A stretch of DNA of 64,000 nt. Source: Mobula hypostoma (lineage: Eukaryota). A program made the position numbers and the translations under genes. Positions within the stretch are counted from its first letter, which is position 1. Each line of letters begins with the position of its first letter. The stretch is from assembly GCF_963921235.1 (NCBI RefSeq), contig NC_086097.1, positions 97,156,001 to 97,220,000 on the forward strand, read 5' to 3'. Shown piece by piece: positions 5,900 to 61,841 of this stretch. A model generated the notes under the pieces. That model ran no database searches. It worked only from the letters and a program-made list of their open reading frames with translations, and had not been told where the DNA came from.

Positions 5900-7630
5900 A
5901 AGAGTCAATGAACACTACAGCACAGAAACAGGCCCTTTGGCCCATCTAGTATGTGCCGAACTATTAATCTGCCTAGTCCCATCGACCTGTAGCCAGACTA
6001 TATTCCTCTATACGTCTCCCATCCATGTACCAACCAATTTTGCACTTAAATGTTGATATTAAACACGGATCCTCCACTTCCACTGACAACTTGTTCCACT
6101 CTCTGAAGTCCACTTCCCCCTTGTGTTCCCCTTAAACATTTCAACTTTCATCCTTAACCCATGGCCTCTAGTTGCATTCTTACCCCACTCAGTGTAAAAA
6201 AGCCTGCCTGCATTTACCCTATCTATACACCTCATAATTTTGTATACCTCTATCAAATCGCCCTTCACTCTCCTACCCCCTAAGGAATACAGTCTGAACC
6301 TGTTTATTTTCCCCTATAACTCAGGTCCTCAAGTTCCGGTAACAACTATGTAAATTTTCTCTTCACTCTTTCAAACCCATTGCTGTCTTTCCTTTTGGTA
6401 CTGTATGTGACCAGAACTGCACCCAACACTTCAGATTAGGCCTCAGCAACATCTTTCAGAACTGCAAAATAACATCCCAACTCCTGTACTCAATGTCTTA
6501 ATTTATGAAGCCCTGTGTGTCAAATGCTCGCTTTAAGATCCTATCTACGGGTGTCGCCACTATTAAGGAATTATGGATATGCATTTCCGGATCCCTCTGT
6601 TCTACCACCCTCCTCGCCGCCCTGTGGCTCACTATGTAAGTCCTACCCCGGTGCAACTCCCAAAGTGCGACATCTCACAATTGTCTGTTTTAAATTCTAT
6701 CTGCCATTTTTCAGACCTTTTTTCCATCTTGTCTAGATCTCGCTGCAAGCCATGACAGCCTTCCTCGCTGTCCACTGCACCCCCAGTCTTGCTGTCATCT
6801 GCAAATCTGCTGAGCCAGTTTAGCTCATTATCATCCAGAACGTTGTTGTAGTTGTAAAACAACAACGGACCCAGCACCCACCCGTCTGACACGCCACTAC
6901 TCACAGGCCGCCAGTCAGAGAGGCAACCACTTAGAACCACATCTCCCATGAAGCTAACATCTAATCCATTTTACTTCCTCATCCTGTGTGCCGACCGACT
7001 GAACCTACTTGACCAACCTCCCATACGGGACATTGCTAAGGCCCATGTAAGGCCCACTGCTTTTCATTGATCAACCTCCCTGGTAGCTTCTTTGAAAAAC
7101 TCTATAAGTTTGATTATGGAGGACCTACCACTCACAAAGCAGGTTGACTATCCCTAATCAATCCCTTTCTATCCAAACACTCATATATCCGGTCCCTTAG
7201 AATACTTCACAATAACTTTTCCACTACTTTTGTCAGGCTCACCGGCTTATAATTTCCTGAAAACATAAACAAAATGCTGGAGGAACTCAGCAGGCTAGGC
7301 AGCATCTAGGAAGGGCTCCGGCCCTAAAGGTCGACTGTACTCTTTTCCTAGATGCTGCCTGGCCTGCTGAGTTCCTTCAGCATTTCGTGTGTGTTTCTCA
7401 GATTTCCAGCTTCTGCAGATTTTCTCATCTATAATTACCTGGTTTATTTTTAAAGCCTTTCTTAAACAGGAGAAAAACATCAGCTATCTTCCAGTCATCT
7501 AGGACCTCACCGGTGGCTAAGGACGTTTTAAATATCTCTGCCAGGGTCCTGGAAACCTCTCCGCCAGCCTCTGACAAAGACTGAGAGAATGTCTTGTCAG
7601 GCCGTGGGGATTTATCCACCTTTATTTACC
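5900..7630 (-). mobile_element. CR1 LINE 3' part (RT and C-terminus), interrupted by a palindromic PLE-derived insert at 7260-7429
   Basis: SDWRPVSSGV...VLGPLLF...SRFADDSK...GLQRDLD (6632-6949); KGDLIEVYKIMR (6059-6268); KSPRPD..DDWKIADV..KNKPGNYR (7425-7619). Confidence 0.9.
7260..7429. mobile_element. Miniature palindromic Penelope-like (PLE) end derivative
   Basis: Inverted arms (AAATGCTG..GGAACTCAGCAGGC..GGCAGCATCTAGGAA / TTCCTAGATGCTGCC..GCCTGCTGAGTTCC..CAGCATTT); flanking 12-bp direct repeats TATAATTTCCTG (7248-7259) / TATAATTACCTG (7430-7441). Confidence 0.8.
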
Positions 7631-8185: not shown

Positions 8186-8472
8186 GTAAGTCAACTGATG
8201 AACTACAGCAGGGAAAAGACCGTGTTACGCATGCGCAGCGTTGTATTTACTACCGGGAAAGTGGGGAGGGGCGGTGGTGGTGGTCAAAAAGAAAAAAAAA
8301 AGCAGATACTGTATCCGTCTTTTTAAAGTACTTATCACATCGTGATTTGTCAGTGCTCTAATATAATATCTTTCCTAAAAACTGTATGCAGTAATATCCC
8401 TGTTACCTCTTCCTTAGTCATTTTCATGCGTGTGGATACAATTAATCTAAAGCAGGCATGTTGTCCTTTAAG

Positions 8473-8583
8473 CAACACACATCAAAGTTGCTGGTGAACA
8501 CAGCAGGCCAGGCAGCATCTATAGGAAGAGGCGCAGTCGACGTTTCAGGCCGAGACCCTTCGTCAGGACTAACTGAAGGAAAA
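8473..8583 (-). mobile_element. 111-bp PLE terminal fragment containing a hammerhead motif
   Basis: Flanked by GTTGTCCTTTAAG at 8460-8472 and 8584-8596; minus strand reads AGTC-CTGACGA-AGGGTCTCGGCCT-GAAAC-GTC-GACT. Confidence 0.85.
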
Positions 8584-8869
8584 GTTGTCCTTTAAGTCTA
8601 ATTTCCTTATTTAATGCAAATCCATTTTGAATTTTTAATCTCCTCACTCAGTCCGCTATTGTATCCATCTATGTCCCTGGATAATACTTAAGAAAACAAG
8701 GGTTTATAATTCTGCCATCTTCTAATTGTTACCTCTGTCTTGTACTGTCTGTCCACGATGGGCCTCACAATGTTTTGGATTTTATTTCAAATAACATAGT
8801 GATGAAATGGTTCCCTCTTCTTTCCCAAGCACTATTCCCATACCTTTAGTTTAGTCTCAATAATATTAT

Positions 8870-9850
8870 ATTGTTAATATTTCCAGTTGTAGTACTTCCA
8901 TTCGGCTTTCAGTTCCAGAACATCTGGGGTGTCTTCTTTCTTCAAAGAACTGGGGTTCCGATCTTCAATTATCAATGCTGCTCTCAACCGCATCTTTTCC
9001 ATATCCCACATATCTGCCTTCACACATCTTCCCACCTCCATAACAGCAATAGGCTTACCCTTGTGTTCACCTACCATCTCACAGGCCTCCCTATCCAGTA
9101 CATCATTCTCCATAACTTCCACCATTTACAACAAGACCCACTTGTGCCTCCCTACTGACCTTCCTCCTGGCACTTATCCCAGCAAGCGGAACAGGTGCTA
9201 CACCTTCTCCTAGACCTACTCCCTCACCATCACTCAAGCCCCAAATTGTCCTTCTACGTGAGCCAACACTTCACCTGCGAGTCTGTCAGGATCATCCGGT
9301 GCTCCAGGTGCGAACTCCTCTGCATCCATGAGACCCCACATAGATTGTGGTCAATTTCCTCAACCACTTTCGCTTCCGCAACAAAAGGTGGAGGGGGGGG
9401 TGGGGGTTCCGGTGGCCACCGTCTTTCAATAGGACTTTCTATTCCCATTCGGACATGTCGATCCATTTTTATCCCTTCTGCCATGACCAGGCCCCACTCA
9501 AATTAGAAGAGCAACACCTGATATTCCGTTTGGGTAGTCTCCAACCTGATGGCATGAACATTGATTTCTCTAGCTTCCGGTAATTTCTACCCCTTCCTTT
9601 TCTCTCTTTTTTCATTCTCCTTTCTGGCTCCCCTTTTTCCCTCTCTTCTTCGTGCATGTTTATTACCACCCTCTGGTTCCTCTCCTCCTTCCCTTTCTCC
9701 CTGTACTCCCCTATCACCTTGCTCCTTCTTCAGCCCTTTGCCTCCTCCATCTATCGCCTCCTAACTTATTACTTCAAACCCCTCCTCACCCACGCTCCTT
9801 ACCCCTCACCTGGTTTGCTCTGGACTTACAGCATCTGCAGAATCTCTTGT
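8870..9850 (+). mobile_element. Degenerate Penelope-like element 3' part (GIY-YIG endonuclease)
   Basis: SSFFKELGFRSSIINAALNRI; QHFTCES..RCSRCELLCIHET; LEEQHLIFRLGSLQPDGMNIDFS; pyrimidine-rich tail ending CAGCATCTGCAG. Confidence 0.85.
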
Positions 9851-10649
9851 GTTATGATTCTGGTAGTTATGATGTTTTATCAGAGGCGGGGTTGAAGGAG
9901 AATTTGATTTTGAGTCCGAGACACGGAAAGGGTTGGACGGTGAACTCCGGAACCAATGAAGTGGATTCCTGAACTTTGAAGCATATGTTTGGAAGCCAGA
10001 GCATCATTGTATCTCCAGTTCTGCCAATCAAAGAGTTAATTTCAGAAATTGTGCAGAACACAACCTGCAACACCTTGTATGTGCATATTGAGACAAAACA
10101 AATTTTTAAAAAAACGGAAGTAATTCAAGCTTGCCCAGTAGCAACTTCTACAGAGCATTTTGGACGAGGAGAGGTGATAGCAGGGTATCGAATTGTTAGG
10201 ATCAGGGCTGCAATTCTATTGTTGTGCGGCGTATTCTCTGCACAGCTGGTTAGTGTCTGGGTTGAAGTTCCTCTCATGGTTGCCTGGTTGGGAAAAACTA
10301 TAAGTTCAGAGTGGATCGGGGCCATTAAGAAATTGGAGCTTGAGAAGGGATTTTGTAAAATAAATAGCCATAAAATGGATTAGCTGTCTCAAATGGTATA
10401 AATACAAGAAAATCTCCATGGGGCACTGTTGAAGAAGACAGGTCTACGTAATACTAGTTTTTTGTGCCTCTTATCTCCATTGCAGGAGCAACAACGCGTG
10501 GCACAAGATGCTTAATGATGCCATCCTGTGGCTTGAGATGTTCACATTTATTTAACATATGCAGACGTGGACATCAGTAAGATAAAAAAAACATAGTGTT
10601 GTCTGCAAGAGCTTGATATAGTGCAGTTTTTCGCAGGTGATTATTCCTA

Positions 10650-18648: not shown

Positions 18649-18823
18649 CACACACAAAATGCTGGTGGAACTCCACATGCCAGGCAGCATCAATGGAAAT
18701 GAACAAACAAATAGTCGACCTTTCGGGCCGAAACCCAAGGGATGCTGCCTGACCTGCTGAGTTCCTTCGGCATTTTGCGTGGGTTGTTCTGGTTTTCCAG
18801 CATTGGCAGAATCTCTTGTGTTT
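18649..18823. mobile_element. Older miniature palindromic PLE end derivative
   Basis: CACACAAAATGCTGGTGGAACTC..GGCAGCATC / GATGCTGCC..GAGTTCCTTCGGCATTTTGCGTG arms with a GTCGACCTTTCGGGCCGAAACCC remnant. Confidence 0.7.
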
Positions 18824-19636
18824 TTGAAAAGCCATTCCCTTTAATTTCGCAATTTTCTAAATGAAGAATTAATATACTTTGGCTATCTTGTTGTGCCCAT
18901 GATAAAACAATTGCTCTGGTTTTTGAAATATGTTTAGTGTACGGCTTCGGGTCTCTTTATCTGGAGCCTCGCACTACCGCTAAAATATTGAAACTCAGAC
19001 TGAACCTCAACTGTAGTCTCAGTACCTCAGCCACTGGCATATGTAGGAGCTATGAGGCATTCATGGGCGGTGTGACAAAGAGTGCTCCATAATAAAGAAG
19101 GAGGTGGGGAAGATGAAGATCTGGGAAGGCTGAGATGATGGAGTCGCAGTGAAAAGACCACAGAACGCAGGTAACTCAAAACACGTCCTCTAAGTGGGGA
19201 AGTGATCAAACAAAAATGGGGGCACCTGGCCAAAATGAACGACCGAAGAGAGCTTAGGGATATTGTGGCAAATAAAAGAGATAAGCAGGATGCTGGCACT
19301 ACGGGGATTGAAGGCAAAGCCAGACATAATCATTGTAAAGATAATTACGAACGAGATTTTCTTTGCATTAGTGAATTGATATAATTATGCCTGATAGCCC
19401 TCTTGAAAGATCGCTAGGAAACTATCCAGGCGGTATTTATAATGTTCATTACTAGAAGATAGCTCAGATGCGATTAAAGTTATAGATAATTGAAAATCTA
19501 GACCATTATAGCTATTATGCCCATGAGACCTATTTTGTCTAACTTAATGGCGTAACATCGCCTTGAAATGTGGTCTACTGCGCATTGAAATAAAAGCGGC
19601 CTTTCGCTCCTCTGAATGCGCACTACTGCAGTGACA

Positions 19637-20562
19637 CGAGGAATTCTGCAGATGCTGGAAATTCAAGCAACACACATCAAAGTTGCTGGTGAACGCAGCA
19701 GGCCAGGCAGCGTCTCTAGGAAGAGGTACAGTCAACGTTTCTGGCCGAGACCTTTCGTCAGGACTAACTGAAAGAAGTGCTAGTAAGAGATTTGAAAGAG
19801 GGAGGGAGAGGGGGAGATCCAAAATGATAGGAGAAGACAGGAGGGGGAGGGATGGAGCCAAGAGCTGGACAGGTGATTGGCAAAAGGGATTTTAGAGGAT
19901 CATGAGACAGGAAGCCCAGGGAGGGGGAACCCAGAGGATGGGCAAGGGGTATAGTCAGAGGGACAGAGGGAGAAAAGGGAAGGAGAGAAAAAGAATGTGT
20001 GTATATAAATAAATAAATAGACATATCAGAATGGGAATGGGACGTCTACCCACGGCCTTCTCTACTGTAAAGATGAAGCCACACTCATGTTGGAGGAACA
20101 ACACCTTATATTCCGTCTGGGTAGCCTCCAACCTGATGGCATGAACATTGACTTCTCAAACTTCCGCTAATGCCCCACCTCCCCCTCGTACCCCATCTGT
20201 TATTTATTTATATACACACATTCTTTTTCTCTCTCTCCTTTTTCTCCCTCTGTCCCTCTCACTATACCCCTTGCCCATCCTCTGGGTTTTCCCCCCCCCT
20301 TTCCTTCTCCCTAGGCCTCCTGTCCCATGATCCTCTCATATCCCTTTTGCCAATCACCTGTCCAGCTCTTGGCTCCATCCCTCCCCCTCCTGTCTTCTCC
20401 TATCATTTTGGATCTCCCCCTCCCCCTCCAGCTTTCAAATCCCTTACTCACTCTTCCTTCAGTTAGTCCTGACGAAGGGTCTCGGCCTGAAACATCGACT
20501 GTACCTCTTCCTAGAGATGCTGCCTGGCCTGCTGCGTTCACCAGCAACTTTGATGTGTGTTG
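19637..20562. mobile_element. 926-bp inverted (palindromic) Penelope-like insertion in intron 1 of paralog B
   Basis: Left arm minus, right arm plus (LEEQHLIFRLGSLQPDGMNIDF at ~20090-20160); junction ~20046; perfect TSD ACTGCAGTGACA at 19625-19636 and 20563-20574. Confidence 0.9.
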
Positions 20563-25535: not shown

Positions 25536-27469
25536 CTGTGCCACAAAAGGAAGGCTCGGAGTTCGGTACTCACAGTGGGTACGGTTGCTTCCAAACCAAT
25601 CTTCTGCAGGGGTCAACACGTGCAAAGCCTGCCTGCGGTGAGCGGGCTCAATGGGATCTCTCTGCCCTTTCTATGAGTTAAAAATAAATCGGAGCATCCA
25701 GCAAATGCCACAACTGTGAGAATCATTGTACCTTTCAATACTAACCGCCCCAGTCCGCGTTCCCCGGGCCACTTAGTGCAGGGTGATATATCCGCCTTCC
25801 GATGTTTATATAGAGACCCGATTCTCTCTGTGTCATGGAAGAAACCAGTCGAGTGACCCGCTGTGCTCCAGTTTTCATCGTTAACACTTGTGAAACTGAA
25901 GATTCATCTGATGCAAGGATTAAAAATGACGGGGAAATCCAGCTCCTCTCCCTCCTCAGCCAAACCTTGACCCTCTAAACTTGTGGTGAGGTCAAATACT
26001 GGTTTTTCCCCAGAACTTAATCACAAGAAGATAGGCCCAGGGTGGGCCACTCGGCACTTCAAGCCTATCCTGCATTCAGTATCATTACTGATCTAGCCCA
26101 GGCCCCGTCTCCTTTCCGTGTCGGTTCCCCCAGAGCCTTTAATTGCCCGATCTTTCGAAAATGGACGACTTCGTCGTTCAACTACCTTTGATGATTTAAC
26201 TTCTACAGCATTGCTGGGTAGAGAATTCCAGTGATTTACCGCTTTTTCTAAGCATCTGGTTAATTCCTCCAAAACAAAATGAGTAAATCTTGGACAGGGA
26301 GTTCTATGCTGAACGTACCATTAATCAAAGGTGAAAGAAATAATAATTTTCCCATGTGCACTGTCGGGTAAATGAGATAACAAACGAGCAGTTTTCTCCA
26401 TCTTGTACCACAGCGATTGGAGAACGTAAAACATTTGCCGCATTCCATTTATTTTGTGTAATTGGAATCCCGCTGGCCCGATTACTCCTCAGATGACATT
26501 AAAACTTTTTTGCACTATCTGGGTGCACAGATTCACATCCAAACATGCAAATCACGATATTTTTAGTGACGGTAAGTAGAAAGGTTCATTGTGAGTAAGC
26601 AGAGATACAGAGTGGGGATGCAACATGATTTTTTTGATATCTGAGAATGGGATAAATTACAACATCCAGTCAGCAACCCGGATAAATTAACATCGGTATA
26701 AACTTAATAGCTAATTTATCAAGTAGTTCTTAACTTGTACCTGATCTGTGTATTGGTGACACACAAGAGAGATCCCCTAAATCAGTCACCGTCCTGCACA
26801 GCACTGCACACCAAATGTCTGCGGAATGATATTCAGTGTTATGGTAATTATGGCCTCAAGGTTTGGAGGAGGCTCCAGTTTTCAGTTGCCGTACCGTCCA
26901 TCAAACCACGGGAAGACGTGAGGACGACAGTGTCGAATTGTTTTAAATATATTGAAGCAAGCTTACATTACCTATTTCTTGAAAGGAAGCATTATTCGTA
27001 TGCACCGAGATAAAGGTGTGCCATTGATCCCTTTGGAGTAGATGGCTGGTTGCTGACTAATTTATGGAAACCCGTGTGTAGAAAAGTGAATTAGGTGTAG
27101 CTACACCACTAAAGCGGAACATCATCTGAGCGGACTGATTTGTTCCAAAAACAGTTTTAGAGATGATTTCCACCCATTCCGTGGAAAGGCAGAGAAGCGG
27201 CGCTGATGAGCCAGACGGGCATAGAAAACGCGATAGGATTCGAAGAATGGTCCGGGAAAGGAGTGTGCTGTGGATTGAGAGAAAGGGTGTGGATAGGTGA
27301 CCATCAGCACACCTACAGACACTCAACAACAGTGCACAATAACATTCTTTTCACAGTGTTTTGCTGGTAAATCGTGGGAAGCGAATCGAAGGATCATGCA
27401 TATGTGGTCATGTAGAAAACGACTGAAGAAAGTATCACTTCCTACGTGATTCCCTTGTCCACTCTTCCC

Positions 27470-28240
27470 TCCCCGCTTATCTTCTCTCCCTTGGTACTTA
27501 TACTTGCAACGGAACAAGAGCCACTGCGCCTCCTCCCTCACTACCATTCAGGGCCCCAAACAGTCACCTGCCAATCTATTGTGGGCATTTGCTGTATCCA
27601 GTGCTTCTCGTGTGGCCTCCTGAACAGTGAGAGCCGACGTAGATTGGGAGACTGCTTTGCCAAACACTTACGCTCCACCCGCCAGGAAAATCGGGATCCC
27701 GCTGTAGCCGCCCATCTCAATTCCACTTCCCATTCCCATTCCAACATGTCAGTCCATGCTCTCCTCTACTGCCATGACGTGGCCACACTCAGGCTGAAAG
27801 AGCAGCGCGGTCTGGGGAGCCTCCAATCTGATGGCATGACCAGCGATTTCTGAAACATCTGGTAATTGCCCCGCTCTCCTTCACCATTCCCCATTCCTGC
27901 TTCCCTCTCTCACTTTATCTCCTTACCTGCCATCACCTCCCTCTGGTTCCTTCCCTTTCTTCTATGGTCTACTCACTCCTATCAGACCCCCTTTTCTCCA
28001 GCCCTTTATCTCTTCCACTAATTATTTTCCCAGCTCTTTACTTGACTCCCTCCCCCTTCCCGGTTTCGCCCTATCACCTGCCACCTTGTACTTATTCCTC
28101 CCCTCCCCCCACCTTCTTACTCTGATTTCTCCCCTTCCTTTCCAGTGAAGAAGCGACTCGATCCCAAACGATCCCAATCTTTTCCATAGATGCTGCCTGG
28201 CCTGCTGCGTTCCTCCCGCATTTTGTGTGTGTTGCTTTTG
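27470..28240 (+). mobile_element. Degenerate Penelope-like element 3' part
   Basis: CCIQCFSCGLLNSESRRRLGDCFAKHLRS..AAHLNSTSHSH (GIY-YIG region) followed by the family tail. Confidence 0.85.
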
Positions 28241-29393
28241 ATGGAAGTGTTACCGCTTTGTGCTATCAGCTGCAATGCGGCTCACCAATAACCTCTCAAG
28301 GGACAGTTAGGGACGGACACTAAGTGCTGGACGTTTACAAGGAGAATAAAAGGTCGAAATTAAGCCTATAGTTTTGGAGGAGAGTGTTGATGTTATCGGA
28401 TGTTCATTTATCGTCAGGAAAATGAAATAGATTAACATAGTTTCCATCCTTCCACCGATGTAGTGGACAACACTGGATGGAAAGAACGTGAGAAACGCAA
28501 GAGATATATTGAGATCTCCGAGTCTGAACGTTTCTCGCAGAATAATACGACTGTTGGAGGGGAGAGGCGACGGGAAAGTGTTTTGCTGAACAGAAGATAT
28601 TCCTGTTGCACACAGGAATGATCGTCATTGCCATACTCAGATGTATCTAAAAATAGCCGAAACTTAGTAAACTTTCCAAAGCACAGTAAAATGAGGCATC
28701 ACGTTACCAGCAGTTAGTGCTAACAGCGCTCAGTTTAATGCGGGTCATGGAACATACAACTTCGATGCCCGATTTTTGAAATATTATTTCCACACCACGT
28801 GAGCCGCCCTCTTATAACGACCAGGTCACCGTCAAAAATTACAAACAAGGAAGCGTAGAAACATGGAAAAGAGGTATACATATGATCATGGATGGCCGTC
28901 TGCTGCTGAAATTTGTTCCTGCTTTCCCACTCTATATGTTTGCAGACAATATGAAGATACGTGGAGGGCCAGATTACGTTAAGGAAGTAGAGAGGCTACA
29001 GAAGCACTTAGACAGATTAGGAGAATGAGCAAAGAAGTGGCAGATGAAGTACAGTGCTCGGAATTCTGTGGTCATGCACTTTGGTCGAAGAAATAAATGA
29101 GTAGACTATTTTCTAAATGGAGAGAAAATACAAAATACTGAAGCGCAAAGGGACTTGGGAGTTCTTGTGCAGGATTCCCTAAAGGTTAATTTGCAGGTTG
29201 AGTCAGTTCGAGGAAGGCAAATGCGATGCATTCATTTTAAGAGGACTAGAATATAAAAGCAAGGATCTAAAGTTGACACATTATTAAACACTGGTGAGAC
29301 TTCACTGGAGTATTGTGAGCAAGTTGGGCCCTTTATTATAGAAAGGGCATTCTGAAACTGGAGAGGGTTCAAAAACGTTCTTGAAAATGATTC

Positions 29394-30146
29394 TTACCAC
29401 CATTCAGGGCCCCAGACAGTCCTTCCAGGTGAGGCGACACTTCACCTGTGAGTAGGCTGGGGTGATATACTGCGTCCGGTGCTCCTGATGTGGCCTTTTA
29501 TATATTGGCGAGACCCGATGCAGACTGGGAGACCGCTTTGCTGAACACCTACGCTCTGTCCGCCAGAGAAAGCAGGATCTCCCAGTAGCCACACATTTTA
29601 ATTCCACGTCCCATTCCCATTCTGACATGTCTATCCATGGCCTCCTCTACTGTAAAGATGAAGCCACACTCAGGTTGGAGGAACAATACCTTATATTCCG
29701 TCTGGGTAGCCTCCAACCTGATGGCATGAACATTGACTTCTCAAACTTCCGCTAATGCCCCACCTCCCCCTCGTACGGAAGCCGTAATTTATTTATATAC
29801 ACATATTCTTTCTCTCTGTCTCTCCCTTTTCTCACTATAGCCCTTGCCCATCCTCTGGGTCCCCCCCTCCCCCTTTTCTTTCTCCCTAGGCCTCCTGTCC
29901 CATGATCCTCTCATATCCCTTTTGCCAATCACCTGTCCAGCTCTTGGCTCCATCCCTCCCCCTCCTGTCTTCTATCTTCTCCTATCATTTCGGATCTCCC
30001 CCTCCCCCTCCCACTTTCAAATCTCTTACTTGCTCTTCTTTCAGTTAGTCCTGACGAAGGGTCTCGGCCCGAAACGTCGACTGTACCTCTTCCTAGAGAT
30101 GCTGCCTGGACTGCTGCGTTCACCAGCAACTTTGATGTGTGTTGCA
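29394..30146 (+). mobile_element. Penelope-like element 3' part with intact hammerhead motif
   Basis: GPRQSFQVRRHFTC..VIYCVRCS..GLLYIGET..RLGDRFAEHLRSV..RLEEQYLIFRLGSLQPDGMNIDFSNF; HHR motif at 30047-30082. Confidence 0.92.
30047..30082 (+). ncRNA. Minimal type I hammerhead ribozyme motif (PLE-associated)
   Basis: Stem I AGTC/GACT; core CTGACGA (30051-30057); stem II GGGT-CTCG-GCCC; GAAAC; palindromic ACGT in place of stem III; GTC triplet at 30076-30078. Confidence 0.75.
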
Positions 30147-31720
30147 GGATTGAGCGGCTTGTCATGTGAGGAGCGTTTGATAGCTCTGGGCCTGTATTCA
30201 CTCGAATTCAGAAGAATGGCACGTGATCTAATTGAAATTTGTCTAAATAGAGTGGATATTTCCTGTGATGGGAGAGTCTGAGGCCAGAAGACAAAGCTTC
30301 AGAATAGAGGGGCATTTTTTCAGAACGGAGATGAGAAAGAATTTATTTTAAACTGGCGTGTGGTGAATCCGTTGAATTCATTGCCTCGGCAGTTGTGGGT
30401 GACAAGTCTTTATGTATACTGAAGGCAGAGGCAGAGGCTGATTGATTATTGATTGGTTCAGGCATGAAGGGATACGGTAAGAAGTACCTTCTTGAATGTA
30501 CTTCACAACTCTTGATGGAGATTATCTCCTGTGGCTGGGTCTCGCCTACCACACGCATTCCTTTCCCATTGTTGGTGAACGTGGGCAATGTTGGATTTGA
30601 GTTTCATCGGTGGAAAGGAAAAGGGCGATATGCCAGTGCGAGCGAGCCTGACAAAGAGCACAAGGATCCGGTATCAGATGAAATGATTTTCGCAAGAACA
30701 GAGAAATCGTTTTTGCTCAATTCTCACGAAAGCCGTGTACACCAAAATTACTGTAACAAAATTAGCTTTAATCTGGTGTGTATAATTTACTTGAAATCCC
30801 TTTCGTTACGCCAGCAATTGCAGAAATAGGAAAGGATTAGTGACTATTCGTCATGTTTCTCTGTAACTCGACTGAATGTTCTTCTCTAAAGCCGAAGTAT
30901 CCGTGCTCGTTGAGTGATGTTGGTTATCTTCAGAATCTTTCTATTTGCAATATTGGACTTCCTGGTAATATTTTTAACTTTCGCATTAAAGCTTCAAGGA
31001 TATTTTACCCAATGTTTACAGCAGGAACGTTAAAGTGCGGGAACCATTGCCAAAAATTGGCACCAAGATAGAGATGCTCTAGCTGACAAATAGCCACATA
31101 GCTTGAGATGGCTGCTGCTTGGAAGACTACTGCATATACATAAGGACTTTGCTCCCACAGCCCTCTGGCAGAGTTCCAAAGGCTCACAGCCTTCTACAAT
31201 AAGGAACTCCTTCCCACTCAGTCTGAAATAAGTAGCCTCTTATTCTGAGACTATGCCCTCCGGCCTGGAACTCCCATGAGATCCACCCTCCCACCATTGA
31301 CCCTGTTTCACCTCCTAAGAATGTTATGCCTTTCAATAACTTCGCCTTTCATTCTTCCAAACTCCAATCAGCAGTTTCCTCTTTCTGCATGTCTATCCTA
31401 CTGCGTGTAAGGCACGAAGCACATAACATCGAATACAAAGATTTAGACCACAGAACTCAACTAAATGATAAATCCCGCGCGTCTTCTCCATTAATGGCAA
31501 GCACGGGCGTCTAACTTAATTAGGCTTTGCAAACAATAGATCAAACTTTCTAATAATTAGGTTCCATTTATGTCACAGAGGTACAGCAACTTGTTACAAC
31601 AACTGCCGTAAAATCTTTAACTACTGCATTATGTTTAAGATATTAGTGTAGATTGATGCGTTGGCTACATGTGAACTACCTGCTATGAGGTGAGTGACAA
31701 TGATATTCGAGTTACATCTT

Positions 31721-33560: not shown

Positions 33561-34227
33561 AGAGAAAGTTAGGACCAGCATTCCGGACACAGTATTTTGC
33601 TTCCTGAACGGCTTCCTCACCTCCTCTTCCGGACAATCTGCTGGAACAACTCAACGGGTCAAGTAGCATTTGTGACGGGAAAGAAAAATATCAACGTTTC
33701 AGTTTGCAACCCTGCCTCAGAACCTTTTCTCATCACACGGATTAGATTAGGTTAGATTATGAGGACACTCAGTCCTCGTTTATTGTCATTTAGAAATGCA
33801 TGCATTAAAAAATGATACAATGTTCCTCCCGTATGGTATCACAGAAACACAAGACAGACCAAAGACTAAAACTGACAAAAAACACATAATTATAACGTAT
33901 AGTTACAACAGTGCAAAGCAATACCGTAATTTGACAAGAGCAGACCATGGGTACGGTAAAAAAAAAGTCTCAAAGTCCCGATAGCCCAGCATCTCACACA
34001 GACGGTAGAAGGAAGAAAACTCTCCCTGCCATGAGCTTCCAGTGCCGCAAACTTGCCAATGCAGCATCCTGGAAGCACCCGACCATAGTCCGACTCTGAG
34101 TCCGTCCGAAAACTTCGAGCCTCTGACCAGCCCTCCAACACTGAGCACCGAGCTCCATCTCTGCCGAGCGCATCAACCCCGGCCCCGGCCGCCAAGCAAC
34201 AGGCAAAGCCGAGGATTCGGGGCCTTC

Positions 34228-36225
34228 TGTCATCGTCTGGACCGTGGAGTCCCTATTCCGGTTCACGGTCAGGTCCATAGTTCCTTATTCCAAGGTTTCT
34301 GGTTTTCCCCAGTTTCTGTTGTAGGCACATGATTCTCGTTTTGGGGCTCAGACATAAATACCTCTGCAAACCAGGGATTCCCTGCTGGACTGTTCTGTTC
34401 CCTCTCTGTCGTTTCCCCTCTCGCCTGACTCTGCCTGGATGCCTTGCCTGACTCTCTGCCTGCTCACCTAGCCTGGATACCCCACTTGTATTGCTGAAAT
34501 TTTACCGCCAGAGCAAGACCAGAGCCTTGTTAGGTCAAGATAAGGAACTGTCTTTCGTTGTGTGGAATTCACTCTCTGTGTCCACGCCTTTGCTAGGTAG
34601 GTCCAGCCGTTTGCCGCTACCTAGTGTTAGGAACTGTCTCTGCATCCTCGCCTTCGCTAGGTGGGTCCGGCTGTTTGCCGCCATCTTGTGTTGGGATCCG
34701 TCTCTTCATGTTCAGCGTTCTGTGGATGACTCCCGGCCCTACGTCCTGTTCCCAAGGAAGGATCCCGGCTCTGTGTTATGTGTAAGAGTCCCGGCCCTAC
34801 GTTGTGTTCCCAAGGAGGGGTCCCGGCTCTGTGTTCCGTGCTCCCATATCTTCTAATCCGAGGCTCCCTGTTCTTGTCTCTTCTAGTTCAAGGCTCCGTG
34901 TTCCTGAAGGCCCTCATCCAATCCGTGCAAAGTCCAGTCCTATCCGAGTCCTGTCCATGTGCCTTTACTTGTCCTTGTGTCTCGCCCTGCGCAGGACTTC
35001 CTCACACAAGCCATGCCCAATCCAGTAGCCTCGTCTTGTCCTCGCCTAGTTCTGAAGTCCGAGTCCGAGTCAAGTCCCACGTTCTGGGTCCTTGCCCAGT
35101 CTCTGGCTCGGAGTCCATACCCAAGCCTCGAATACCCTAGACCCAAGGCCCAAGACCCCAAACCTGTCTCCAAGCTCAAGCCTCAAGACACCAAGCCTGT
35201 CGCCAAGCTCAAGCTTCAAGACCCCAAGCCCGTCTCCAAGCTCAAGCCTCAAGACCCCAAGCCTGTCTCCAAGCTCAAGCTTCAACACGCCAAGCCTCTC
35301 TCAAAGCTCAAGCTTCAAGACCCCAAGCCTGCCTCCAAGCTCAAGCCTCAAGACCTCAGGCCTGTCTCCAAGCTCAAGCCTCAAGACCCCAAGCCTGTCT
35401 CCAAGCTCAAGCCTCAAGACCGCAAGCCTGTCTTCAAGCTTTAAGACCCCAAGCCTGTCCCCAAGCTCAAGCTTTAAGACCCCAAGCCTGTCTCCCAGCT
35501 CAAGCCTCAAGACCTCAAGTCGGTCTCCAAGCTCAAGCTTCAAGACCCCAAGCCTGTCTCCAAGCTCAAGCCTCAAAACCACAAGCCTGTCTCCAATCTC
35601 AAGCTTTAAGACCCCAAGCCTGTCCCCAAGCTCAAGCTTTAAGACCCCAATCCTGTCTCCCAGCTCAAGCCTCAAGACCTCAAGTCGGTCTCCAAGCTCA
35701 AGCTTCAAGACCCCAAGCCTGTCTCCAAGCTCAAGCCTCAAGACCCCAAGCCTGTATCCAATCTCAAGCCTTAAGACCCCAAGCCTGTCTCCAAGCTCAA
35801 GCCTCAAGACCCCAAGCCTGTCTCCAAGCTCAAGCCTCAACACCCCAAGCCTGTATCCAAGCTCAAGCCTCAAGACCCCTAGTCTATCTCCAAGTTTAAG
35901 CCTCAATACCCCAAGCCTGTCTCCAAGCTCGAGCCTCAAGACCCCAAGTCTGTCTCCAAGCTCAAGCCTCAAGACCCCAGCCTCCAGTCATGTCATGTCC
36001 TTGCCTGGTTCTGGGGCCCTAGCCCGAGGCAAGACCCAGGTTCTGAGTCCTTGTCCAGTCTCTGGCTCTGGGTTCAAGCCCAGGTTCCTAGTTCATAGTT
36101 CCTTGTCCAGTTTCCCTGTTTGTTGTCCTTGTCTTAGCCCAAGTCCTTCATCCTTGTCCTGTTCCTAGTACTTCAGTGTCTGTGTCTTGCATTTAGGTCC
36201 GCCATCAACGACCCCCATTGTGACA
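34228..36225 (+). mobile_element. Solo LTR (family I) with internal 33-bp minisatellite, inserted in an older repeat in intron 2 of paralog C
   Basis: TGTCA...TGACA termini; flanks CCTTC/CCTCC; homologous to 62453-63744; the host repeat reads through across the insertion. Confidence 0.85.
35151..35980 (+). repeat. 33-bp tandem repeat, about 25 copies
   Basis: Unit CAAGACCCCAAGCCTGTCTCCAAGCTCAAGCCT; 11-aa periodicity in three ORFs. Confidence 0.95.
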
Positions 36226-36669
36226 CCTCCCCTCGGAGATTTCGGATCACACAGTAGCAGCGGCAGCGAATGCTGATGCGGCCAAGTGCGGGTTAATAGG
36301 AAAAGGTGTCTACTGGTCGTCTAGGACGAGTTGGGGAGAATGGACGATTCTACAATACGGTGGCATGTTTTATAAAAGAAGGAAGTCCACATTTAAACGG
36401 TATCCTACCGAAAGAAAAGTCACCGTAAAACGAAGATCAAGATCGCCTGACAAAAAGAAAAAATTAAGAAACTTCGGGCTTCCTCTTCCCCTGGAGCAAT
36501 TACAGAATGTATTAAGTAGCATTGTGAGGATGAACTTGACATTGCCGCTATATTATGAAAGACGCTTCAGCGATGCATATTCTTTACTGTTACATATGAA
36601 ATCCTCCTACTGAGACACAGACAGCTCTCCCTATACAGCAATAGCATCGGGCTGCTCCTTCTGCTGTCA

Positions 36670-38068: not shown

Positions 38069-38919
38069 GGATTTTTCCCCGTTCTTCCCTCTTGGTCGAC
38101 CTTGTGAAACAATTGTCACAGGCTAGGATCTGAATTTGAGAGAACAGTTAAGAGCTCCGCATATGTATCCAGTTCTAAATTCTCATGATGTATTAAAACG
38201 TTTCACAATCAATAGTGCGTAAGCACTTATCAGATCCGTCTACGAATACCAATACCCAATTTTATTCAGTCTGTGTGGAAAAACTGTTAAACGTACAGCC
38301 GAGCTTTCAGATTACAGCATGACTCAATAGAACGGAATGCTAAACATTGCAATTTCTTATTTCTCAAACACCTCATCATATCAATCGTTTATGGACTTGG
38401 ATTTTATTCTCATAAAGAATCATTCGTAGACAAAATAATTCTCAGTAGCCACGAAATAAGCAGCAAACTGCAAAAATCCAAAGCCTTATGTGGCCGCAAT
38501 GTAGATTATACTTCCCTTGAAATGTAAAGTCAAATTTCCAATAACCTTTTGTACCTATGGACCAGCTTTTAATTAATTATTTATGCGCTTGGCACTTCCA
38601 ATTGGTCCGCTCCTCAAGGGTTTCGAGCCTTTCACCGTGTCGAAAATATGTATATAGTTGATAATGACAAGTCTAACATTGACAGCTTTACAATACGTCG
38701 TCTTGAACGCTGCTGTTCACGGTGTTTCCCATATATTTTTTAATGGAGTCAATGTAACTTTCCATTGACGACTAAAGTTTGCGTGTTCCTTAGGGGATGC
38801 TAAAATATGAAGACCCTGGATAGATCAGTACCTAGGGTAATCTAAGGTATCGTCTTAGATATCGGCAATAAAAAAAAGTATGTCTATCATTACTAGTTAA
38901 AGAGACGGTAGAATAATAA

Positions 38920-39154
38920 GCAACACACATAAAAGTTGCTGGTGAACACAGCAGGCCAGGCAGCATCTCTAGGAAGAGGTACAGTCGACGTTTCGATACG
39001 AGACTCTTCGTCTTCGTAGGTCCTGGCGAAGGATCTCGGCCCGAAACGTCGACTGTACTTCTTCCTAGAGATGCTGCCTGGCCTGCTGCGTAGACCAGCA
39101 ACTTTTGAGTGTGTTGCTTGAAATTCCAGCATCTGCAGATTTCCTCGTGTTTGC
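38920..39154. mobile_element. 235-bp palindromic PLE end derivative with two opposed degenerate hammerhead motifs
   Basis: Inverted arms of about 80 bp; flanks GTAGAATAATAA (38908-38919) / GTAGAGTAATAA (39155-39166). Confidence 0.88.
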
Positions 39155-39634
39155 GTAGAGTAATAAATGAGACGAAACCGGGCCCCGATAACGATGACGT
39201 ATATCTCACGATCTGAGAAACAGAACAAGACAAACGACTATTTTGTTCCTGTGTTATGGAACGAAATAGATTTCGATACATTGAAACAATACTCAAATCA
39301 AAACATGTTTATCATTTCATTCAAGTAGATTTTGGTCTACTTTGTAATTATTTATGAAAACGAACTGGTAAACATTAGGCTACACAGTAGTATTCAATTA
39401 ACGTTAATTTTGGAAAGTTCAGTATCCTTGAACAAGCGAGTAAATGGTGATTGCGTTGTTTACCGGACCTCGTTGTTTTTAAAATGTCTTCAATATCTTC
39501 ACTTTGCTACATGATTCATGAAACAAGAAGGTCACATTGAACATTGTACATTGTACAGAGTTAACTTGAGCTTGGCCAGCTACACACCGCCTTTCTACAA
39601 ATGTCAGGCACGACATACCGGTAACTGAAGTCTG

Positions 39635-40920
39635 AGGTACAGTCGACGTTTCGGGCCGAGACCCTTCGTCAGGACTAACTGAAAGAAGAGATAGTAAGAG
39701 ATTTGAAAGTGGGAGGGGGAGGGGTAGATCCGAAATGATAGGAGAAGACAGGAGGGAGAGGGATGGAGCCAAGAGCTGGACAGTTGATTGGCAAAAGGGA
39801 TACGAGAGGATCATGGGACAGGAGGCCCAGGGAGAAGGAAAAGGGGGAGGGGGGAATCCAGAGGATGGGCAAGGGGTATAGTGAGAGGGACAGAGGCAGA
39901 AGAAGCAGAGAGAAAAAGAATGTGTGTATTTAAATAAATAAACAAACAAACAAATAAATAAATAACGGATGGGATACGAAGGGGAGGTGGGGCATTAGCG
40001 AAAGTTTGAGAAGTCAACGTTCATGCCATCAGGTTGGAGGCTACCCAGACGGAATATAAGGTGTTGTTCCTCCAACCTGAGTGTGGCTTCATGTTGACAG
40101 TAGAGGAGGCCGTGGATAGACATATCAGAATGGGAATGGGACGTGGAATTAAAATGTGCGGCCACTGGGAGATCCTGCTTTCTCTGGCAGACAGAGCGTA
40201 GGTGTTTAGCGAAACGGTCTCCCAGTCTGCGTCGGGTCTCGCCAATATATAGAAGGCCTCATCGGGAGCACCGGACGCAGTACATCACACCAGCCGATTC
40301 ACAGGTGAAGTGTCGCCTCACCTGGAAGGACTGTCTGGGGCCCTGAATGGTGGCGAGGGAGGAAGTGTAAGGGCATGTGGAGCACTTGTTCCGCTTACAA
40401 GGATAAGTTCCGGGAGGGAGTTCGGTGGGAAGGGATGGGGGGACGAAAGGACAAGGGAGTCGCGTAGGGAGCGATCCCTGCGGAAAGGAGATAGAGCGGG
40501 GGAGAGAAAGATGTGCTTAGTGGTGGGATCCCGTTGGAGGTGGCGGAAGTTACGGAGAATAATATGTTGGACCCGGAGGCTGGTGGGGTGGTAGGTGAGG
40601 ACCAGGGGAACCCTATTCCTAGTGGGGTGGCGGGAGGATGGAGTGAGGGCAGACGTGCGTGAAATTGCAGAGATGCGTTTGAGAGCAGAGTTGATGGTGG
40701 AGGAACGGAAGCCCCTTTCTTTAAAAAAGGACATCTCCTTCGTCCTGGAATGAAAAGCTTCATCCTGAGAGCAGGTGCGGCGGAGACGGAGGAATTGTGA
40801 GAACGGGATGGCATTTTTGCAAGAGACAGGGTGGGAAGAGGAATAGTCCAGGTAGCTGTGAGAGTCCGTAGGCTTATAGTAGACATCAGTAGATAAGCTG
40901 TCTCCAGAGATAGAGACAGA
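39635..40920 (-). mobile_element. Penelope-like element, 5'-truncated (RT C-terminus, GIY-YIG and tail)
   Basis: STDVYYKPTDSHSYLDYSSSHP..FLRLRR; RVPLVLTYHP; VMYCVRCSR..GLLYIGETRRRLGDRF; HHR motif at 39641-39676. Confidence 0.93.
39641..39676 (-). ncRNA. Minimal type I hammerhead ribozyme motif
   Basis: Reverse complement AGTCCTGACGAAGGGTCTCGGCCCGAAACGTCGACT, identical to 30047-30082. Confidence 0.75.
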
Positions 40921-41532
40921 AACTATTCCAAAAACGACATGAATGAAAGCAATTTTACACAGTCAGTGGCCCGAGTCCGGAATGCACTGCCGGGGGAAGC
41001 AGTGAATGCAGGTTAAACTGTGGTGTTCAAAGGGGGATTGGGAAAGTATATCTGAAAGCACGGTTATTAGGCGAATCCGAGGAAGTGGAGCTTTCTGGAT
41101 CAGCCTACATCTAGCAGACACGAACTCAACGAGCCAAATGACTCCTGTGCCCTTATCATACTGCGATTCTGATCTTAATCATTCGTCCCACCTTCCCTGC
41201 AGTACCTGCATTCACTGATCTTAAAGTTCCAAGTTCAAGTTTATTGTTACGGGTATACATACCCAGAGTATAAATGACGTGGAATTAGGTTTTCGCAGCA
41301 GCGTCACAGTACGTTGCAAACATCGCAAACATAAATTAACAGAAACTGAAAATGCATGCCTAACACGAAAGTAAATACAAACAAACATGAACGCATCAGT
41401 GTAAGTTAAGGGAGAAAGAAAATAAAGAAATACAGTCCGAGATAGTGTTAGGGTTTTTGCAGGTAGTTTCAGTAACCTGGTGGCAGTGGGAACTATTGTT
41501 TAACGCTGAAGTGTGGGTCTTTAGGCTCCTTT

Positions 41533-43323: not shown

Positions 43324-43559
43324 GCTTTACTTTCTGCTTGATGGCAGTGACAAGAAGAGGGCATAACCTCGCTGATAGGGGTCCTTATTGTTGTCCAGAG
43401 GCTTAGTCCAGAATGCACTCAACTGAGTCCTGTGTAGCAGACTACTAAACAGCTGGAACACTTCAATTTGTTGAAAGAACCACATGACATCTTCCTGGCC
43501 AAGCTTTCTAAGAAAGGTATAAATTAACGTATCTGCATCCATTGCACCGTCTGACAAAT

Positions 43560-58965: not shown

Positions 58966-61841
58966 GGCGATTTAAAAGTTATTTTATGGTTAGCGTTGTT
59001 GGCTCTATAAGACTTCTAAAGTTCAACCTTATGGCTCGTGTTATCAGAATATGCAGTATTAACAGATTCGATTTAAGCTTTTAGCTCCATTGTTAATGAG
59101 GAATATCTGTTTGCATTTGCAGAGCACCTTTTCACAGTTTACCACCAGAGGTATGTCACTACTGTCATGTTGGAAGTAGAAATGTTGAGCACACCAATCT
59201 CTCGAAAATTTATCAGATGAAGTGTTTCTCATCCCCCTCCCCCCAAAAGGGGTAACAACATGTCGACGGAAGCGCTGTGTAACGGCAGCACGACGGGCGG
59301 CTCCGGCCGTTTAATATCAAGGCTGATCCTGTCCCTACATTCTATTTCTTGCTACGTCTCCTTATCTCTAAATCAGTGTCCAAAGATCCATCATTCTTAT
59401 ATTTCATAGAAGGATGGTATTCAGACCGTCTCTGAGTAATCCCATCAGAGATATTCTCCCACTTACTTCCTCATATCCGACACTCTCGAACACCCATGAA
59501 GAACTAATCCCACCCGCCCTGATTCTCCTGGTAGCCACCTACACTAGGGGAGGTTTATAGGAGCTAGTTAACCTCTCCGTCCTGAATGTACTTAGCAGCA
59601 TGATATCCATGGCCGAATCTTGCTGAAAATTTCATAACAAAAAAGACTACAGTCTTCTGGGCTTAATATTCATGTGTCCGCTGTAGATAACCTCCCACAT
59701 TCCGTCTGTCTGCATTAGAACTGGCAGTTGCTGCCAGTCATAATAGCAACTCCATTTATTCCCCTTTGTGCACCATCTTTCTGGCTGAATATGTCCACAA
59801 ACCCATTGGAAACTCATTTGACAAACGAAAAATGACCATCTTGACCTTAATTGCTACGAAGTGCCAGGTTAAGTCATTTGGTCTCACTCCAATCAGAGGT
59901 ATTGCTATTATCTATCCGATCCCTAACCCACAAATCCCAACCTTTTCTATTAAGTAATACTAACTTGTTTTTTTTCTCTTCCCAGTTCCGATGTGGGATC
60001 CTAGACCGGAGTCGTCGTCTGTTGTTCTTTCTATAAACGCGATCTGTTCTTCTGAGTATTTTCTATCTGGGCTACTTCAGATTTCTAGAATTCTTTGTTA
60101 AAGTTTGCATGTTAGTTACAGAGTGCTTCTACTGAAATGCTGCTACCCTTATATATATTCTCTCATTTCTGTCCTAACGTGTGACCTCTTTTCCGGAAAA
60201 GATGCCCCGCCCAGACTTGTAGAATCTCACTTCTACGGAAACGCTAACGTTACATCCCCCCTCGCCCTGTGGACCCTTCTCTCAGAACATTCACCACGTT
60301 CGTGTAACAAGTCACAATTTTCTGATGTTCGGTCCATTAAGTGTAAATATTGGTGATGGCAAATGTTCCGTTCATCTCTGAATGAATACACAGAACAGGA
60401 CAAGAGTCAACGTGATTCCTGCCATTCAATCCGATCCTGGCCGACTTGCCCAGACGTGAACTCTTTTCTCTGTATCGGATCCCCATAGTCCTCAAGCTCT
60501 CGATGTTTCAAAGATGTTTCCGCGCCGGCCTTAAATACTTGCAATGATCCAGCTTCCACCCCCTGCGGGGTAGACAATTCCAGAAATTCACCACCCTCTG
60601 TGAGAATAAATTTCTCAAGACGGTTTACGACCTAAGCGAGCAGAGTGGGGCTCGATAGAATAGCTCTTCCAAAGTCAACGCATTCTGATGTTTTGCGCCC
60701 ATTTCTCAGGAGGAGACGATTGAAAAGTGAACAAAACCAATCGGCTGCAGATGCTGAGCGGGTCGAGCAGCATCTGTGGGGACGGAACGGAATTGTCCAC
60801 GTTTAGTGCTAGAGAGGAAACTGAGAGAGAGAGTGCACTTCAGAGACAGAGGCAAGTGGGTGATAGCAGGCAAATTGAACTTATGTTTTTCAAACCAGAT
60901 ACGACTAAATTATCAATTGAGCCACGCTACACTATTTTGAGCATTAATTAAATTAACAGCTGCAGAATCCACATTAATTCTAATATTTTGTTTAGAATAT
61001 TATCATTAGATGTTACAATTTTAATGTTATTATACAGAATAGTTTTATTGGAATTGACATCACCGTTGCTATCGTTGACATAATTTTCAATAAATGTTTC
61101 TTTACTTTAGGCGACAACCTTACAAGCAGGTAAACAACCGTTTATAACGAAGATTTTGCCTTTCAGGAAACATCTGTGCACTTAGAAGGCATGTGAGCAC
61201 ATTTTAAGAAAGACACCATGATAAAGTCTAATACTTAATTACTTTTGAACGAGATCGGGAGAATAGAACAATTAGGAAAAAACATCAATATTGGAAATAA
61301 TAATTTGAATTTGATGTGTTGTTTGTAAAGATTACCTTCCGGAAGAAACAATATGCAGTTATGATGGAACAAGTGTTCTTAAAATGTCACACATTAGACC
61401 ATGTTATTACAATTCCTGATACACTCAGCAAAAGATCACGTCACAGGTTGTAACTGACGGAGTTCGACGGGGACTTTGCTAGTGAAAGTAATGTTCATAT
61501 CACTAAAAGACAAGATGACAATATGTTCTAATTTCTTAGATCGGTAAGTGCGCTGAATTGTGTACAGGATATTATTTCACTTGGCAGTTGTATCAATGTA
61601 ACATAACAAATACCACGTGTCCTTCAGCGTTATTCCGTGGTATAAAACAAATAATCTGCCATCATCCTGCTTCAGAACACTCCCGTCCCTCTGTATCAGG
61701 GATTAATACTTGGTGACTTCACAGAAGACTTGCACTGGTATATATCTATATCAGGAACCGGAGACAATCTGCTCTGAACAGGGAGCCCACTGATCATTAG
61801 AGAGAGTGAGCAACGCCGACGACACTAGCTTCCCGTCTGAG

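What the first reader, a model, noticed from the sequence alone, without database searches (positions are those of the whole stretch)
30047..30082. Hammerhead ribozyme motif in the terminal repeat of a very abundant Penelope-like family
AGTC-CTGACGA-A-GGGT(CTCG)GCCC-GAAAC-GTC-GACT has stem I, the catalytic core, stem II and a GUC site. Stem III is replaced by palindromic ACGT. Known: PLEs carry minimal hammerheads thought to cleave as dimers. An identical copy is at 39641-39676 (-). Variants occur at ~8535-8570 (-), ~19730-19765 (-), ~20465-20500 (+) and ~38982-39054 (both strands). At least 7 copies in 64 kb implies a very large genome-wide count (inference).
Basis: partly seen in the sequence, partly recalled or inferred. 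Interest (0 to 1): 0.7.

Follow-up and report, generated by a model that had tools for sequence, protein, structure and literature searches.

The report
Minimal hammerhead in ray Penelope retroelement
This is a small self-cutting RNA motif of a type already described at the ends of Penelope-like jumping genes, here sitting in one of many broken, dead copies in what looks like a ray genome; it is real but ordinary.

Summary
Window 30047-30082 is a minimal type-I hammerhead: stem I, CUGACGA, an extra A, a 4-bp stem II, GAA, palindromic ACGU without a loop, and a predicted cut after C30078. All 7 listed copies exist, plus 5 older remnants.

It lies 291 nt after the GIY-YIG stop codon of a 5'-truncated, broken Penelope-like element with a Neptune-type cysteine linker. 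The best protein hits are from rays. Across 11 distinct motifs from related elements, stem I covaries strongly, and helix III is palindromic in 19 of 19 hits outside the window. The geometry matches a published Acropora Neptune hammerhead.

Against an active role here: only 2 of 7 young copies are perfect, excess conservation among copies is not significant, the monomer is predicted to misfold, no tandem partner is near, and none of 13 insertion arms starts at the cut site. Cleavage and transcription were not tested. Rfam does not detect the motif.

Class, dimer model, head-to-head units and tail are all published, and this scan noted the same module twice on other DNA. Verdict: new member of a known kind, low interest.

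The parts
30047..30082 (+). Minimal type-I hammerhead: stem I 30047-50/30079-82, core 30051-57, extra A 30058, stem II 30059-62/30067-70 with 4-nt loop, GAA 30071-73, palindromic ACGU 30074-77, C17 30078
29393..29755 (+). 5'-truncated C-terminal GIY-YIG endonuclease remnant of the same insertion, two in-frame stops, ORF stop at 29753-55
   Evidence: translation; tblastn of shark, ray and full-length relatives
29756..30046 (+). 3' UTR / pseudo-LTR body, ending in a pyrimidine tract with CTTAC and AG (splice-acceptor-like, untested)
30083..30145 (+). Sequence after the hammerhead up to the short 3' end (+67 from the cut site)
   Evidence: loose ends behind 30145 show the long tail in other copies
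39634..40932 (-). Longest copy: RT thumb, CX4CX2C linker, GIY-YIG (frameshift and stop), 3' UTR, identical hammerhead at 39641-39676, ends 11 nt after the cut site
19634..20562 (.). Head-to-head unit: minus arm 19634-20014 (long tail, hammerhead 19730-65) and plus arm 20044-20562 (short end, hammerhead 20465-500); exact 12-bp flanking direct repeat at 19625 and 20563
38917..39155 (.). Head-to-head unit of two short arms: minus arm with short end and partial hammerhead, plus arm with long tail and hammerhead 39019-54; 12-bp flanking repeat with 1 mismatch
8472..8584 (-). Solo 113-bp insertion starting 46 nt before the cut site, hammerhead 8535-70, flanking direct repeat (15 bp, 1 mismatch)
7262..7427 (.). 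Older head-to-head unit, partial decayed hammerhead from 7310, one short and one long end, 12-bp flanking repeat with 1 mismatch
18649..18818 (.). Older head-to-head unit, partial hammerhead on minus arm, one short and one long end; no clear flanking repeat
27427..28237 (+). Older-subfamily copy: linker/GIY-YIG remnant, different 3' UTR, decayed hammerhead about 28145-75
8902..9853 (+). Older copy: RT-thumb/EN remnant, hammerhead region missing, long tail present
33634..33724 (-). Heavily decayed hammerhead-and-tail remnant
   Evidence: (E 2e-7)
59970..60059 (+). Very decayed remnant, again preceded by a pyrimidine tract and CAG
   Evidence: (E 6.5e-4)

Best explanation
The motif is the minimal type-I hammerhead that endonuclease-bearing Penelope-like elements carry in their pseudo-LTR, here in a Neptune-like family of a cartilaginous fish, probably a ray. 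SHOWN: motif, position, orientation, domain remnants, truncated and inverted copies, covariation between families. INFERRED from other PLEs: a single motif cannot close helix III, because ACGU has no loop. Two motifs can swap strands, ACGU pairing with ACGU, to build two active cores that cut after C17. The reaction is probably weak and needs a tandem transcript or the element's protein. In active source elements this would trim or regulate the transcript. The copy at 30047 is a dead, 5'-truncated retrocopy with no host role. It and its neighbours were made by reverse transcription starting at one of two tail positions (about +65 or +100 after the cut site) on RNA mostly uncut at the hammerhead, and have since decayed, often at CpG.
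For: The motif fits the Cervera consensus point by point (vs 51). It lies on the sense strand 291 nt after the EN stop. Relatives carry RT + GIY-YIG (Pfam annotations), and 98 of 107 with the EN motif carry the CX2-5CXXC linker described for Neptune/Nematis. In 20 loci encoding PLE relatives, a scan that required neither stem I pairing nor a palindrome gave 19 hits: all 19 palindromic, all with G10.1, 18 with stem I of 3 bp or more. The stricter descriptor gave 13 hits vs mean 0.1 in 30 shuffles. Stem I over 11 distinct motifs: 93% paired, 18 double-sided changes, 0/500 shuffles, well above all slid controls. The nearest protein relatives carry GGGC(UAAC)GCUC/ACGU, the same stems as the published Acropora Neptune motif. 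The swapped dimer is planar with valid pairs. Head-to-head units with the tail at one end in 4 of 4, and flanking repeats of 12 bp or more at 4 of 9 insertions (12 of 1000 by chance), match published PLE structure.
Against: No cleavage or transcription data. Rfam has no match. Among the 7 young copies, conservation of core and stem I is not significantly higher than in the flanks (p=0.20), and stem II plus loop has the highest non-CpG change rate (6/63). The active dimer (-16.7 kcal/mol) is less stable than two misfolded monomers (-25.8) or the best dimer (-34.1), and in longer context stems I and II form with probability only 0.11-0.28. Clade placement rests on a motif and on similarity, not on a tree. 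Five of 9 insertions show no clear target-site duplication. The covariation set pools several PLE families, one member (L026) pairs only 2 bp, and some hits (e.g. L009:4739, L011, L013:2187) lie beside rather than in the matched element.
Confidence: 0.85

Rival explanations
1. [quoted passage not shown]
For: Two of 13 arms start just downstream of the cut site (+11 and about +14 to +19), both at inverted junctions where trimming is possible.
Against: None of 13 arms starts at +1. Five start 20-46 nt upstream and keep the scissile bond, and six start far upstream. In the Anolis element uncut RNA was the main substrate and no RNA-seq reads began or ended at the site.
Confidence: 0.12
2. The motif is kept mainly as an RNA-RNA pairing or protein-binding structure; cleavage is incidental.
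For: The palindrome is kept in 19 of 19 outside hits. Published activity is low, and catalytic mutants did not affect insertion in vitro. The monomer folds into an inactive hairpin in which GACG pairs with CGUC.
Against: The catalytic nucleotides C3, G5, A6, G8 and A9 are invariant in the 11-motif alignment, though the scan selected for them. PLEs of plants and fungi have canonical, active hammerheads. Naiads form the same inverted units without a canonical hammerhead.
Confidence: 0.15
3. The short units are a separate non-autonomous family (retrozyme or SINE-like) that amplifies on its own.
For: Several insertions are only 110-240 bp and consist of hammerhead plus tail. Retrozymes are reported in one cartilaginous fish and proposed to derive from pLTRs.
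Against: No same-strand tandem array of units in the window. The 5' ends and inverted junctions all differ, and the same sequence runs continuously into the EN and RT remnants.
Confidence: 0.05
4. The hammerhead likeness is chance.
For: Rfam negative; folding energy no better than shuffles (z -0.96).
Against: Descriptor shuffles, covariation, same position in related elements.
Confidence: 0.01

Closest known systems
Minimal hammerheads (min-HHR) of metazoan Penelope-like elements (Cervera and De la Pena 2014, PMC4209133), especially the Acropora digitifera Neptune motif in Fig. S3
   Same: CUGANGA-H, G10.1-C11.1, GAAA, palindromic 15.2-16.2 without loop, short stem I, U-rich upstream, position in the pLTR; Acropora has the same 4-bp stem II, tetraloop, CUGACGAA and ACGU-C.
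   Different: Stem sequences differ by compensatory or wobble changes (AGUC/GACU vs GCU/AGC; GGGU/GCCC vs GGGC/GCUC). No cartilaginous fish appears in the Fig. S3 list as read. Local density here (about 110 young copies per Mb in this window) would far exceed the 4,000-9,000 per genome reported for coelacanth and Xenopus, if typical.
Neptune clade of endonuclease-positive PLEs (as summarised in Craig et al. 2021, PMC8557442)
   Same: RT thumb, Zn-finger-like linker, C-terminal GIY-YIG, 5' truncation, adjacent inverted copy, 30-40-bp tail at one end.
   Different: No full-length or intact copy in the window; Nematis shares the linker and was not excluded by a tree.
Poseidon element of Anolis carolinensis (Frangieh et al. 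2024, PMC11167929)
   Same: Two 3' end classes downstream of the hammerhead; inserted copies keep the uncut motif.
   Different: Different clade. There the ORF starts inside stem II; the ORF start of this family is not in the window. Protein-assisted cleavage was shown there, not here.
Non-LTR retrozymes (bioRxiv 10.64898/2026.07.22.740005)
   Same: Short non-coding repeats with a type-I hammerhead, linked to PLE pseudo-LTRs.
   Different: Retrozymes are tandem arrays; these copies are dispersed or head-to-head and continuous with coding remnants.

Membership tests
PLE minimal hammerhead (type I) | Core CUGANGA ... GAAA ... UH | tested here: met
   CUGACGA, GAAA, UC
PLE minimal hammerhead (type I) | Extra nucleotide between 9 and 10.1; G10.1-C11.1 pair | tested here: met
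   A30058; G30059-C30070
PLE minimal hammerhead (type I) | Helix III reduced to a palindrome without loop | tested here: met
   ACGU 30074-77; palindromic in 3 of 4 window hits and 19 of 19 hits in relative loci
PLE minimal hammerhead (type I) | Compensatory changes in helices across families | tested here: met
   Stem I: 18 double-sided changes, 0/500 shuffles, slid controls 24-43% paired vs 93%. Stem II was required by the scan, so it is not a test.
PLE minimal hammerhead (type I) | Excess conservation among genomic copies of this family | tested here: inconclusive
   2/113 vs 25/538 non-CpG changes, p=0.20, 7 copies
PLE minimal hammerhead (type I) | Located in the pLTR on the sense strand, 3' of the ORF | tested here: met
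   291 nt after the EN stop; in both repeats of L015
PLE minimal hammerhead (type I) | Self-cleavage as dimer or with protein help | not testable with these tools
   Only geometry and energies computed
Canonical hammerhead (Rfam families) | Match to an Rfam hammerhead model; closed helix III | tested here: not met
   No match at E<=10
EN+ PLE, Neptune clade | RT followed by C-terminal GIY-YIG | tested here: met
   Full-length RT+GIY-YIG relatives align over 40938-40019 at 44-50%; profile match of the thumb region E 2.8e-51. No Pfam score was obtained for the window's own EN stretch; the thumb ORF alone had no Pfam hit.
EN+ PLE, Neptune clade | CX2-5CXXC linker between RT and EN | tested here: met
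   CKRNKCSTC in the 39634-40932 copy; 98 of 107 relatives with the EN motif
EN+ PLE, Neptune clade | RT phylogeny grouping with Neptune rather than Nematis | not tested
   No named reference set or tree; only indirect support from the Acropora Neptune-type hammerhead in the nearest relatives
EN+ PLE, Neptune clade | 5' truncation, inverted copy, tail at one end, target-site duplication | tested here: met
   4 of 4 inverted units have one short and one long end; flanking repeats of 12 bp or more at 4 of 9 insertions
Non-LTR retrozyme | Tandem array of at least two units with complete hammerheads | tested here: not met
   No same-strand tandem in the window; genome not available

The most novel reading that the evidence does not exclude
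The ACGU palindrome is a template-pairing device. Two element RNAs joined through the dimeric hammerhead are loaded on a dimeric RT-endonuclease, each cut DNA strand primes on one RNA (one at the short site, one at the long site), and this yields head-to-head units with one tail. Splicing to the AG that forms the first two bases of stem I would switch the ribozyme. Not excluded: 4 of 4 inverted units have one short and one long end, 7 of 13 arm starts lie within 46 nt of the cut site, and two subfamilies keep a pyrimidine tract and AG at stem I. Against: Naiads make the same units without a canonical hammerhead, U-rich upstream sequence is general for these motifs, and no GT-AG joint appears among the 15 of 988 joints shown.
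Probability: 0.08. Interest if true: 0.65.

Novelty: new member of a known kind. Interest (0 to 1): 0.2.

Why it matters
As a class it is known since 2014, so it changes little. Its use is as material. If the local density is typical (7 young copies and about 8.5% PLE-derived sequence in 64 kb), a ray genome holds on the order of 1e5 copies per gigabase (extrapolation from one window). That is enough to map 5' junctions, tail use and subfamily covariation at single-base resolution, and so to test whether the PLE hammerhead cuts the transposition template in vivo, which remains open. I found no paper on this motif in sharks or rays, but a 2026 preprint reports hammerhead retrozymes in one cartilaginous fish.

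Tried and rejected
Rfam scans gave no hammerhead match; they are uninformative for a motif without helix III. No whole genome was held, so there is no direct count. A degenerate DNA pattern found 8 loci in metagenomes, none similar to the window by blastn, treated as chance, and 0 in viral contigs. The protein alignment found no relative in viral contigs. A search with a read-through peptide over the 3' UTR found nothing; only 1 of 240 stored proteins reads through the motif.

Read laying returned contigs only, so RNA ends, strand and expression could not be read. The two RNA-labelled runs are guesses, and one is probably DNA. Their higher depth downstream of the motif was not used, because contig depth cannot rank parts of a gene. 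Only 40 of 369 variant rows, 15 of 988 joints and 24 of 4344 loose ends were shown, so no covariation or splicing test was possible. Loose ends at 30047 (826 contigs in X1, agreement 0.38; consensus resembling the older subfamily's upstream tract) are only a hint that subfamilies diverge at the start of stem I.

The Lunse et al. paper on dimer cleavage was not held; I saw only its title and a review's statement. Rejected: chance motif, canonical monomeric hammerhead, retrozyme array, and host-exapted ribozyme at this locus (nothing distinguishes it from its sibling copies).

Full report
OBSERVATION. The 36 nt at 30047-30082 read as stated and parse as a type-I hammerhead without helix III: stem I AGUC/GACU (plus U-G), CUGACGA, an extra A, GGGU(CUCG)GCCC, GAA, ACGU, C17 at 30078. 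A model built from 12 arms finds 14 matches, adding older remnants. A structural descriptor finds 4 motifs against 0.08 in 60 shuffles. Rfam has no hammerhead match, as expected for a motif lacking helix III (inference).

CONTEXT. The motif lies on the coding strand, 291 nt after the stop codon of a GIY-YIG remnant (29393-29755, two internal stops). The longest copy (39634-40932, minus) adds the RT thumb and a CX4CX2C linker. Full-length RT plus GIY-YIG proteins align over it at 44-50%, and ray and shark proteins at 60-85%. The best named hits are Hypanus sabinus and Mobula hypostoma, so the host is probably a batoid (inference). The linker is described for Neptune and Nematis (PMC8557442, passages). 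No tree was built, and no Pfam score was obtained for the window's own endonuclease stretch; Pfam GIY-YIG was confirmed on 3 of 5 homologs scanned, one below cut-off. Nine insertions cover 5,432 bp, 8.5% of the window. None has an intact ORF.

INSERTION ANATOMY. Four insertions are head-to-head pairs. The 3' ends fall in two classes, about +63 to +67 and +96 to +106 from the cut site (one arm mapped at +75 by alignment run-on into flank, one copy ends at +11), and each of the 4 pairs has one of each. Flanking direct repeats of 12-15 bp occur at 4 of 9 insertions, against 12 of 1000 random position pairs. Inverted copies, a 30-40-bp tail at one end and short duplications are published PLE features (PMC8557442 and PMC3846280, passages), and the two ends match the two RT start sites found for the Anolis element (PMC11167929, parts 1-2 of 4). 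Of 13 arms, none starts at the cut site: five start 20-46 nt upstream, two 11-19 nt downstream, six far upstream. Most copies therefore came from RNA uncut here (inference).

IS THE FOLD SELECTED? Within the window, the 7 young copies show 13 changes in the motif, 5 at CpG. Only 30047 and 39641 are perfect. Core plus stem I has 2/113 non-CpG changes against 25/538 in flanks, p=0.20, and stem II plus loop has 6/63: inconclusive, and compatible with neutral decay. Between families the signal is strong. A protein alignment retrieved 20 loci encoding PLE relatives from genome bins (animal DNA in prokaryotic bins, by inference). A scan requiring only the core and a 3-bp stem II gave 19 hits there, all palindromic in helix III (ACGT, ATAT, AGCT, ACATGT, ACGCGT) and 18 with stem I of at least 3 bp. 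Reduced to 11 distinct motifs including the window's, stem I is 93% paired with 18 double-sided changes, 0 of 500 shuffles and slid controls at 24-43% (40 of 44 Watson-Crick cells against 17.9). Some hits lie beside, not inside, the matched element. The nearest relatives (about 50% protein identity to a shark member) carry the motif about 105 nt after the ORF with the same stems as the Acropora Neptune motif in Cervera and De la Pena's Fig. S3, but with C at position 4. The window motif meets their consensus (PMC4209133: main text parts 1-2 of 4, supplement file 2 parts 1-2 of 3; file 1 could not be searched).

MECHANISM. ACGU cannot close on itself. A strand-swapped dimer with a 4-bp ACGU/ACGU helix and two intermolecular stems I is planar and fully paired. 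It scores -16.7 kcal/mol against -25.8 for two monomers, which fold into an inactive hairpin pairing GACG of the core with CGUC at the cut site. Weak, assisted cleavage is therefore expected. This agrees with low activity of dimers and none of monomers, and with protein-assisted cleavage that was dispensable for insertion in vitro. The nearest same-strand copies are about 9 kb away and damaged (palindrome broken at 20465, core changed at 39019), so a cis dimer at this locus is unlikely. Best reading: a real ribozyme motif maintained in active source elements, carried passively in this dead copy. Cleavage and transcription are untested.

ABUNDANCE. Twenty of 24 listed runs, from 11 studies, 8 coded organisms and one metagenome, hold part of the stretch, two of them with a small share and 4 runs laid. 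Summed contig depth over the motif exceeds the unique flank by six orders of magnitude in one DNA run, but the tool states this is no copy number. Extrapolating the window gives about 1e5 young copies per gigabase (inference from one window).

SIDE FEATURE. In two subfamilies a CTTAC, a pyrimidine tract and an AG abut stem I, recalling the Drosophila virilis intron that ends at helix I (PMC2377424, passages). No splice joint was seen among the 15 of 988 joints shown, and U-rich upstream sequence is general, so this is a lead only.

NOVELTY. The class, the dimer model and the insertion structures are published. Searches showed no paper on this motif in sharks or rays by title or abstract start, and the Fig. 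S3 list as read has no cartilaginous fish. A 2026 preprint (part 1 of 5 and passages; supplements closed) reports hammerhead retrozymes in one chondrichthyan. The Lunse et al. dimer paper could not be read (title and a review passage only, PMC6765202) and may include such examples. This scan noted the same module twice on other DNA. Verdict: new member of a known kind; interest 0.2.

Noticed in passing
window 30022-30048 (+); 28116-28147 (+); 59970-59986 (+): CTTAC, pyrimidine tract and AG directly before or inside the 5' strand of stem I in different subfamilies; looks like a 3' splice site, as at the D. virilis Penelope hammerhead.
   Followed up: partly
window 7262-7427, 18649-18818, 19634-20562, 38917-39155: All four head-to-head units combine one short and one long 3' end; several junctions lie inside the hammerhead with short microhomologies.
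   Followed up: yes
L009:2609-2648, L010, L012, L013:4113-4152, L028:142-181: The nearest Neptune-type relatives have C instead of U at core position 4 (CCGA) and a possible extension of stem I beyond an internal loop.
   Followed up: no
L009-L028: Twenty loci in assemblies labelled as bacterial genomes encode animal-type Penelope-like elements, some with hammerheads in both repeats (L015, L020): likely host DNA in those bins.
   Followed up: partly
window 30047-30082: Five CpG in 36 nt (observed/expected 1.49, against 0.23-0.47 in flanking element parts), so the motif is a mutation hotspot after insertion.
   Followed up: yes
P0126, residues 503-522: An annotated zebra shark protein ends in a peptide that reads through this family's hammerhead; several ray and shark gene models, two with host gene names (P0122, P0124), contain this element's coding remnant.
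   Followed up: no
window 49090-51109 (-), 56639-57703 (+), 28980-29370, 30147-30330: Non-LTR retrotransposon remnants (RT domain hits at 49093 and 56639); the stretches flanking the 29393-30145 copy look LINE-derived and the left one is high-copy.
   Followed up: no
window 34200-36230, 41530-45390, 62450-63750: Another GC-rich repeat family with internal tandem arrays (about 35-bp units at 41947-42534; about 33-bp units at 35000-36000), present in several copies; not identified.
   Followed up: no
window 53710-53858: A 150-bp imperfect palindrome unrelated to the hammerhead units, inside a LINE-like stretch.
   Followed up: no
window 10650-11210 and 11987-12540: A 560-bp direct duplication at 93% identity.
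   Followed up: no
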